64,000 nucleotides of DNA from Porphyridium purpureum (taxonomy: Eukaryota): assembly GCA_008690995.1 (NCBI GenBank), contig VRMN01000006.1:310001-374000 (forward strand). The letters are read 5' to 3'. Positions 24,000-25,545 of the stretch are shown piece after piece; the stretch's first letter is position 1, and each line of letters opens with the position of its first letter. The position numbers and the translations under genes are program-made. Under the pieces are notes generated by a model. It did not search any database, was not told the origin of the DNA, and saw only the letters and a program-made list of their open reading frames with translations.

Positions 24000-25545
24000 T
24001 CTCCGGGCAAAAGGGGTTGCTTTGAATACCCATTTGTCAACCAATTATTGTATTCTGCCGGCAGAGACTGCGTGACTGCCTCGCAAGAGCCGTGTGGTGG
24101 CCACAATTGGCGGGCGTTTGGGCCAGGAGGTCAAGCCATCCTTTGACGCTCGGCCTCAAGATTTCAGAAATTGAGAGTCAAGGCAAGGCTAGGCGGGTCT
24201 TCATCAAGCATGCGTCCCGTAAATGAGACCTTGAAGCAGAGAAACCAATGAGGCAATCTTGAGAGCTCGCGCCTAAATCAGCACAACGAGCAGCTGTAAT
24301 TACATGAACCACATGCTGAAGCTATAGAAACAGGATCTACTGCACACAGGTATCTTAAGACGCAAAAAGCAAGTGGAGGAGCGTTGGTGGATTTTCGTGC
24401 AATGACTATGCAGCGTTCAAGTAAAGATGGTAGGGCACAACACTAGAGCCTTCAGCTTCTTGCCCTGAGTATCTTCGCTTGGAAACACATCACATGTGAC
24501 ACTGGCCATTAGCGAGGGCCACCGCGATGTGTTGTTGGTTGCATCGGCCATGCCAGACCAGAGCCTTTCCATGACTTTTCTGCACCAATGCGAGGTAGCA
24601 GTCGAACACCTGTTTACGACTGAGTGAAGGAAAGGTACGAAGAAACCGCGTGAGTTTACGGCAAATGGGAAGATGCATAGCTATCCTTTCTGTGTCGAAC
24701 CCGGCAACGTGAAAGCTGCACGGACTGCGAAGAAGCGCGGCAAAAATGTGCTGACGCTGTCACTCTTATTCAGGACTTTACTGGCAAGCGCGTGGTAGCA
24801 GAAGACAGTGGTCTCCTTAACCTTGTCTATTGATAGTAGAGGCAAGACGATGAGAACGAGAAACTAGCATTTGCACGCCATAGCGACAAAGAGTACCAGC
24901 AGAAGATTGGTCTCGAGGTAGCTCTGATAAACCGCGCGTAATGGATGAGCAGAGCAAACCTGATAAAGGCTTGACCCAAATGGCGAGCGCAAAGACTCCT
25001 GATGCTGTCCTGATATTTGCCTACACTGACTTGTTCACCATCCTGGACAGGCTGCTGCAGCTGAATTCCGAAGGACCGCGAGCGATGGATGGCATCTGTC
25101 AAGACATCCAAGATTCAGCTGGTGCAAGTAAGAGCAGACGTGTGGGAGTAGCCTACAAAGCAGGTGTGTTCAGCAACTGCAGCCAGGATGACTGCGCCGG
25201 CGCCGAGGAGGAAGTGCGCAACGCTTTGAGGACAAGAGCCATCGAAGTGTACGAAGCGAGTGAAGACCATATTAGCCAGTGGTGCAAATACTGTCAAAAT
25301 AAAGTAGTGCCGATTTCCAGTGCGGGCGGCGACCACGTGACGAAGCCACGGTGCTGACTGCAACGACATGGGCTCGCAAGACCCTGAATTGCAATGTCAA
25401 AGCCGCAGTGAACATCCTGCACATCATAAAGGAGACATTGCATGACAGTTGACGGCAGGTTTTCGCACGTCGGTTTGAAACCGAAGTCGCGCCTGCAGCA
25501 GCAATTGGAGAGGGCAGAACAGGGCAGGAAGACGCACCTGTGTGA
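24000..25545 (+). pseudogene. Decayed Fanzor1 (TnpB-related RNA-guided endonuclease)
   Basis: Collinear motifs across frames: FSFLP (24451), KHITCD (24483), KRVVAEDSGLLNLVY (RuvC-I, D at 24804), SDKEYQQKIG, VGVAYKAGVF, VYEASEDHISQWCKYC (RuvC-II plus Zn finger, 25248-25294) and LNCNVKAAVNILHI (RuvC-III, from 25384). Multiple stops and frameshifts. Boundaries are approximate. Confidence 0.85.

What the first reader, a model, noticed from the sequence alone, without database searches (positions are those of the whole stretch)
24000..25545. Hidden, decayed Fanzor1 RNA-guided nuclease locus between two housekeeping genes
Seen: the apparently intergenic gap encodes, across three frames and through stops, the ordered motifs FSFLP, KHITCD, FTANG, KRVVAEDSGLLNLVY, SDKEY...G, VAYKAGVF, VYEASEDHISQWCKYC and LNCNVKAAVNILHI...*RQVFAR. 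Known: Fanzor1 proteins carry FsllP, hI.iD, f.TDG, RuvC-I DPG, RuvC-II vdE..TS..C..C, RuvC-III RD.NAa.NI and a terminal RP..f.R in that order. The RuvC-I Asp (24804) and RuvC-II Glu (25262) survive; the third Asp is now Asn. Inference: this is a relic of a Fanzor-carrying transposon, so intact relatives may exist in this algal genome. The ORF track shows only a 138-aa fragment of it.
Basis: partly seen in the sequence, partly recalled or inferred. Interest (0 to 1): 0.88.

Follow-up and report, generated by a model that had tools for sequence, protein, structure and literature searches.

The report
Dead Fanzor1 fossil in red alga
Between two ordinary genes of a single-celled red alga lies the broken remnant of a Fanzor1 gene, a transposon-borne nuclease whose intact form likely cut DNA under RNA guidance; this copy is dead, but it points to uncharacterised intact relatives in environmental DNA and in an oomycete.

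Summary
Window 23,994-25,503 (+) aligns collinearly, across 8-9 frameshifts and 11-12 stops, to 495 of 637 positions of a profile built without any window sequence (232 bits; 12 controls at most 21). That family is Fanzor1: its best PDB matches by sequence and by fold are SpuFz1, PpFz1 and GtFz1, and one member is labelled FZ1 in Saito 2023. RuvC-I Asp (24,804) and RuvC-II Glu (25,262) survive; the third Asp is Asn. The copy is dead: about 100-120 N-terminal residues are missing, a conserved 13-codon block is deleted, and only 65 of 128 near-invariant residues remain (about 0.33 substitutions per site; the stop count fits neutral decay). No terminal repeats, omega-RNA or transposase were found. 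The host is Porphyridium purpureum by named paralogues of a flanking gene. Intact copies in this genome could not be tested, and none is annotated. The relic nests among intact metagenomic Fanzor1s that are 72-74% identical to a multicopy oomycete Fanzor1, which suggests horizontal spread. Red-algal Fanzor1s are already in print; I found none listed for Porphyridium. New member (fossil) of a known kind; modest interest.

The parts
23994..25503 (+). Fanzor1 pseudogene, profile positions 123-635 of 637; 8-9 frameshifts, 11-12 stops
23898..23993 (+). weak, uncertain 5' extension of the relic; no significant match to the family's first 122 positions
   Evidence: P0013 and P0015 alignments start at 23898; 13.5 bits, reached by 54 of 343 controls
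24442..24686 (+). decayed FSxLP / HITID / KTDGY motifs upstream of RuvC-I (WED-side assignment recalled)
24786..24812 (+). RuvC-I strand; Asp codon GAC at 24804; family DPG reads DSG
24941..25357 (+). 138-aa ORF, held as a called protein in public collections; longest unbroken piece; lacks 13 conserved codons near 25070
25262..25294 (+). rearranged RuvC-II Glu (25262), six residues before CxxC (25283, 25292)
   Evidence: definition in PMC10711439
25352..25395 (+). second Cys pair (Cys at 25352 kept, fourth Cys now Trp at 25369, frameshift between) and RuvC-III (family RD reads CN; Asn at 25393)
25504..25960 (+). where an omega-RNA and right end would be expected; none detected
22221..23844 (+). 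flanking host RRM RNA-binding gene
26267..27628 (-). flanking host YnbB / Met-gamma-lyase-like gene

Best explanation
This is a dead, 5'-truncated Fanzor1 pseudogene, likely left by a non-autonomous transposon that inserted between the two host genes long ago and has likely decayed without selection since. Shown: collinear homology, family identity, stops, frameshifts, deletions. Inferred from characterised Fanzor1s: the ancestral protein of about 650 residues bound an omega-RNA transcribed from the element's right end, recognised a TAM and cut double-stranded DNA with its D-E-D RuvC site, probably helping the element persist or spread. Inferred: the ancestor was about 80-85% identical to intact metagenomic Fanzor1s and entered the red-algal lineage by horizontal transfer (about 0.6). 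Today it makes no nuclease.
For: Profile alignment 232 bits against at most 21 in 12 controls. 45% identity over about 530 codons to P0015 and P0013. The family profile's best PDB hits are SpuFz1, PpFz1 and GtFz1 at E 1e-14 to 1.5e-12, with Cas12f/TnpB-type chains at E about 1. An AlphaFold model of relative P0002 (pLDDT 74) has Fanzor1 structures at ranks 1-7 (E 3e-18 to 3e-11) and Fanzor2 at 7e-5. P0024 = RLN26509.1 is labelled FZ1 in Saito 2023 Supplementary Table 1. Neutral decay: 65 of 128 near-invariant positions kept; 65 of 76 changes at conserved columns need one base. Simulation puts this at about 0.33 substitutions per site and predicts about 12 stops; 11-12 are seen. Placement among P0013/15/16/19: SH-aLRT 98 and 96; the tree that excludes the relic from that group plus the oomycete group is rejected, p-AU 0.03.
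Against: No transposon ends, target duplication or transposase were found, so 'transposon' rests on the family's behaviour elsewhere. The relic's pieces alone hit nothing relevant in PDB, Pfam, NCBIfam or PHROGs. The relic is a long branch (1.5-1.7) and both trees are quick searches. The assembly probably has indel errors nearby (RRM gene split over 3 frames), so the frameshift count may be inflated. Hosts of the closest relatives are unknown, and no host-gene control for vertical divergence was run.
Confidence: 0.93

Rival explanations
1. The 138-aa ORF, or a small RNA from the 3' end, has been domesticated by the host and is kept by selection.
For: The ORF is a called protein in NCBI, UniRef and EukProt. 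It is the longest break-free stretch, 395 bases, with p 0.05-0.11 under uniform breaks. It keeps the RuvC-II Glu and CxxC.
Against: Near-invariant residues are kept no better inside the ORF (30 of 54) than outside (35 of 74), Fisher p 0.38. It lacks RuvC-I and RuvC-III and a conserved 13-codon block. It is alone in its 90% cluster. No stable fold downstream: z 0.32 for 25490-25760; z -1.4 to +1.5 in 17 of 18 windows, the 18th lying at 25950-26049 near the next gene.
Confidence: 0.04
2. An intact Fanzor1 gene that only looks broken because of assembly errors.
For: The neighbouring RRM gene has two frame breaks, and YnbB copies differ by frame at their N-termini.
Against: Indel errors do not make 11-12 in-frame stops or change half the invariant residues by point substitution. 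A 15,792-base ORF lies unbroken 2.4 kb away.
Confidence: 0.01
3. Same pseudogene, but it arrived as a piece of giant-virus DNA instead of a self-contained transposon (an alternative route; not exclusive of the dead-Fanzor1 reading).
For: The top ESM Atlas cluster is viral (Nucleocytoviricota, phylum known for 1 member; score 0.96). Viruses are proposed vectors of Fanzor1 (PMC3627910; PMC10432273).
Against: Three scans of viral contigs found no relative: 0 of 2, 0 of 7 and no pattern match. No other gene remnant in 9 flanking or opposite-strand frames. Named relatives sit in cellular genomes in several copies.
Confidence: 0.12
4. Chance motif matches in intergenic DNA.
For: No library hit from the raw frames; one motif (FTANG) was indeed a chance assignment.
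Against: phmmer E 4.6e-15 against 1.84 billion proteins; collinear match over 1.5 kb.
Confidence: 0.001

Closest known systems
Fanzor1 of Nothophytophthora sp. Chile5 (RLN26509.1, RLN68060.1; FZ1 in Saito 2023 Supplementary Table 1)
   Same: Same subfamily: 45% identity to the relic and 72-74% to the relic's nearest intact kin over the C-terminal 360 residues; sister group in the tree; 6 gene models on contigs of 4-66 kb.
   Different: Oomycete host; partial gene models; D-E-D intact where checked; no functional study seen.
SpuFz1, PpFz1, GtFz1 (solved, active Fanzor1)
   Same: Same order of domains and rearranged RuvC; best PDB matches of the family by profile and by fold. GtFz1 also has Asn at the third site.
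   Different: Only 14-19% identity to relative P0002; they have a defined omega-RNA, and SpuFz1 has 30-nt inverted repeats; the relic has neither detectable and is not translatable.
CMe-1A Fanzor1 of Cyanidioschyzon merolae (Bao and Jurka 2013)
   Same: Old, degenerate Fanzor1 in a unicellular red alga, with no TIRs or TSDs defined.
   Different: About 150 copies, some intact. By eye its printed sequence lacks this subfamily's signature motifs (not aligned), and no Cyanidioschyzon-named protein is among the 33 and 48 hits, so it is likely a different subfamily.

Membership tests
Fanzor (TnpB superfamily) | RuvC-I DPG motif | tested here: inconclusive
   The relic reads DSG (Asp kept, Pro lost); 19 of 20 relatives checked match the full DPG...E...CxxC...CxxC...D pattern.
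Fanzor (TnpB superfamily) | Rearranged RuvC-II Glu six residues before the zinc finger (Ealt) | tested here: met
   E 25262, then six residues, then CxxC; definition from PMC10711439 passages.
Fanzor (TnpB superfamily) | C4 zinc finger followed by RD (RuvC-III) | tested here: not met
   Decayed in the relic: 3 of 4 Cys kept, RD reads CN, each one base from the family residue. Met in the intact relatives.
Fanzor1 (against Fanzor2 / TnpB) | Groups with Fanzor1 by sequence and fold; long REC insert, about 600-700 residues | tested here: met
   Profile and fold of relatives hit Fanzor1 far above Fanzor2, TnpB and Cas12f; relic nests in the family; family member labelled FZ1.
Fanzor1 | Eukaryotic or eukaryote-virus host | tested here: met
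   Eukaryotic rDNA in the window; Porphyridium purpureum paralogues; 0 of 61 candidate stretches in prokaryote genomes confirmed.
Fanzor element | omega-RNA at the right end, downstream of or overlapping the stop | tested here: inconclusive
   No stable fold and no Rfam match; no flanking DNA of close relatives was obtained (the one close locus ends inside the gene).
Fanzor element | Transposon ends (TIR/TSD) or an associated transposase | tested here: inconclusive
   None found; the left end is probably lost and there is no second copy to compare.
active Fanzor nuclease | Open reading frame and RNA-guided DNA cleavage | tested here: not met
   11-12 stops, 8-9 frameshifts, 5' truncation; cleavage by relatives is not testable here.

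The most novel reading that the evidence does not exclude
The fossil records a little-studied Fanzor1 subfamily that has jumped between distant eukaryotes: a red alga, an oomycete (72-74% identity to the relic's nearest kin) and, more distantly, an aphelid and a brown alga. Its 15 long metagenomic members with complete D-E-D sites are untested candidate RNA-guided nucleases, and the Porphyridium genome may hold further, less decayed copies or omega-RNA-only 'ghost' loci.
Probability: 0.55. Interest if true: 0.45.

Novelty: new member of a known kind. Interest (0 to 1): 0.3.

Why it matters
It extends Fanzor1 to Porphyridium, for which I found no genuine entry in the three Fanzor surveys' searchable supplements, and shows that ORF-based surveys miss such fossils. 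The copy itself does nothing. Its value is as a pointer to an intact, uncharacterised Fanzor1 subfamily, and as a possible case of transposon transfer between a red alga and an oomycete lineage.

Tried and rejected
Direct library scans of the relic failed: PDB (2 of the 3 full frames plus the ORF), Pfam, NCBIfam, PHROGs. A word-based search of longer proteins with the ORF scored 0 of 339 candidates. Viral contigs: nothing in 3 scans. Prokaryote genomes: 0 of 61 candidates. Metagenome contigs: 13 of 315 candidates, only L001 close (42% to P0002) and without flanks. Idea that the RRM gene's tail derives from the Fanzor N-terminus: rejected (13.5 bits, reached by 54 of 343 and 48 of 418 controls). 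Idea of methylation- or RIP-like decay: CpG o/e is 0.83 in the relic, the second lowest of 42 windows, but C>T against T>C is 14:10 (p 0.54) and 5 of 14 are in CpG (p 0.26), so not supported. Selection on the 138-aa ORF: not supported. omega-RNA and terminal repeats: none. Second copy in the window: none; 1 of 55 tblastn hits lay outside the locus, inside YnbB at E 8e-4, taken as unrelated. Expression and distribution in sequencing runs remain untested. Earlier scan findings: none. The careful tree did not finish; quick trees were used.

Full report
Observation. All 9 of 9 motifs are present in order in three + strand frames between 24,451 and 25,470. The only sizeable + strand ORF is 24,941-25,357, 138 aa. 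The gap lies between an RRM gene ending at 23,844 and a YnbB/Met-gamma-lyase-like gene at 26,267-27,628 on the - strand. The window is eukaryotic (rDNA at 28,670-34,486). Three named members of the YnbB protein's 5-member cluster are Porphyridium purpureum proteins on a contig of the same length, 975,138 bases, as the one that bears the 138-aa ORF. I take the host to be this unicellular red alga. No whole genome is held.

Finding the family. The raw pieces matched nothing relevant in PDB, Pfam, NCBIfam or PHROGs. The ESM Atlas gave a lead: top score 0.96, clusters of giant viruses and early-diverging fungi, some with PF07282. phmmer of 24,974-25,354 against 1.84 billion proteins returned 11 hits, one being the ORF itself; the best other was P0002 (566 aa, 47%, E 4.6e-15). 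P0002 retrieved 33 proteins. I aligned 25 proteins, chosen by length and score and holding no window sequence, as A1 (24 plus P0043). A1 retrieved 48 proteins. Both searches scored only the roughly 8,000 best candidates.

The family is Fanzor1. The A1 profile's three best PDB sequences are SpuFz1, PpFz1 and GtFz1 (E 1.2e-14, 2.8e-14, 1.5e-12); Cas12f/TnpB-type chains score E about 1. A model of P0002 (pLDDT 73.9, pTM 0.52) finds Fanzor1 structures at ranks 1-7 and Fanzor2 at rank 12. 19 of 20 members checked carry DPG...ExxxxxxCxxC...CxxC...D (my pattern is looser than the published one), the rearranged RuvC that Yoon et al. define for Fanzors (PMC10711439, passages). All 15 long metagenomic members among them match. 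P0024 is RLN26509.1, labelled FZ1 in Saito et al. Supplementary Table 1 (PMC10432273, supplement search).

The relic belongs to it. Six-frame hmmsearch gives four significant collinear pieces and nothing elsewhere in the window. A frameshift-aware alignment covers profile positions 123-635 over 23,994-25,503: 495 positions matched, 195 identical to the consensus, 232 bits against 16-21 for 12 controls. Of 24 single proteins tried, P0015, P0013 and P0016 align best, at 45% over 510-532 codons. In quick trees of 29 and 14 rows the relic sits with P0013/15/16/19 (SH-aLRT 98 and 96); excluding it from that group plus the oomycete group is rejected at p-AU 0.03. It is a long branch, so the placement carries that caveat. 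It also shares the KKRGK insert before RuvC-I with that group.

It is dead. The profile alignment shows 11 stops and 8 frameshifts; single-protein alignments show 12 and 9. The family's first 122 positions have no significant match upstream. Thirteen conserved codons are missing near 25,070. Asp 24,804 and Glu 25,262 survive; DPG reads DSG, the fourth Cys is Trp, and RD reads CN. The Asn is not itself fatal: GtFz1 has it and cuts, and SpuFz1 D606N is more active (PMC11423790, section 7). Only 65 of 128 near-invariant positions are kept, against 88-100% in seven intact members (partly circular, as they define the columns). Simulation puts 51% retention at about 0.33 substitutions per site (range about 0.25 to over 0.4) and expects about 12 stops, as seen. 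The ORF is no better conserved than the rest (30 of 54 against 35 of 74, p 0.38). Some frameshifts may be assembly errors, since the RRM gene is split over three frames, but stops and substitutions are not explained that way, and a 15.8-kb ORF next door is unbroken.

Element anatomy. No terminal inverted repeats, no transposase or other Pfam family in 9 flanking or opposite-strand frames, no Rfam RNA and no stable fold where an omega-RNA would lie. In SpuFz1 the omega-RNA spans the region from the stop codon to the right-end repeat (PMC10432273, passages). I could not obtain flanking DNA of close relatives, so this is inconclusive. Most relatives lie on contigs of 2-4 kb, which would fit a collapsed multicopy element (inference).

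Mechanism. Shown: a decayed Fanzor1 gene. Inferred from characterised Fanzor1s: the ancestral protein was an RNA-guided double-strand DNA nuclease carried by a non-autonomous transposon. Inferred here: it inserted just 3' of the RRM gene, lost its left part and decayed neutrally. At variable columns the relic matches P0015 at 62 of 149 (42%), against 51% retention at invariant columns; the ancestor was therefore roughly 80% identical to P0015 even at variable sites, like the 82-94% within that group. That group is 72-74% identical to the Nothophytophthora Fanzor1, seen as 6 gene models on contigs of 4-66 kb. More distant members are named from Amoeboradix gromovi and Laminaria digitata. Red algae and oomycetes split over a billion years ago (my knowledge), so such identity in a mobile gene suggests horizontal transfer. 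Against: the hosts of the closest relatives are unknown, contamination of those assemblies is not excluded, and I ran no host-gene control. Intact copies in this genome: none among 33 and 48 hits or 339 candidates, but repeat-masked copies would not be annotated.

What is known. Bao and Jurka 2013 (PMC3627910; parts 1-2 of 7, passages and one supplement search) describe about 150 old CMe-1A Fanzor1 copies in Cyanidioschyzon merolae. A 2025 preprint mentions uncharacterised Fanzor-encoding elements in Bangiophyceae (10.1101/2025.02.11.637652, passages; its supplements are closed and may list more). Jiang et al. name rhodophyta among hosts (PMC10530073, passages). 'Porphyridium' has 0 hits in the searchable supplements of Saito (9 files listed, one unreadable) and Jiang (2 files), and 2 in Yoon's regex table, which look to me like TFIIH p44 and PEX2 false positives (recalled). 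One library paper holds both 'Fanzor' and 'Porphyridium', a review seen only as a listing. Other searches. The library lacks most subscription papers, and I could not search Repbase or Dfam.

Verdict. A real and well-spotted fossil: a new member of a known kind, inactive. Interest 0.3. The more interesting lead is the intact subfamily it points to.

Noticed in passing
window 38815-43977 (+): Copia-type LTR retroelement with two identical 298-base LTRs, so a recent insertion. Zinc knuckle in 39149-40582, RVT_2 in 40622-43027, RNase H only past an in-frame stop near 43025. No clear target duplication.
   Followed up: partly
window 22221-23844 (+): The RRM gene is split over three frames, with breaks near 22590 and 23045; likely assembly indels, or short introns.
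   Followed up: partly
window 26267-27628 (-) and 28670-34486 (+): The YnbB/Met-gamma-lyase-like gene lies back to back with an rDNA unit. Its 90% cluster has 5 members on the same 975-kb contig, with identical C-termini and differing N-termini. A protein gene may be part of a repeated rDNA unit.
   Followed up: no
window 25891-26049: Two 34-base tandem copies (85% alike) and a stable hairpin window at 25950-26049 (z -3.1, one of 18 windows), downstream of the YnbB stop; role unknown.
   Followed up: no
window 5744-21535 (-): Unbroken 5,263-codon ORF resembling TRRAP/Tra1 (name recalled from its sequence, not scanned).
   Followed up: no
PMC10711439 Table S5: Two Porphyridium proteins and one Gracilaria protein labelled 'Fanzor' by a regex look like unrelated Cys-rich proteins (judged by eye).
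   Followed up: no
window 23991-25505: CpG o/e 0.83, second lowest of 42 windows, without a significant C>T or CpG bias among inferred changes.
   Followed up: partly
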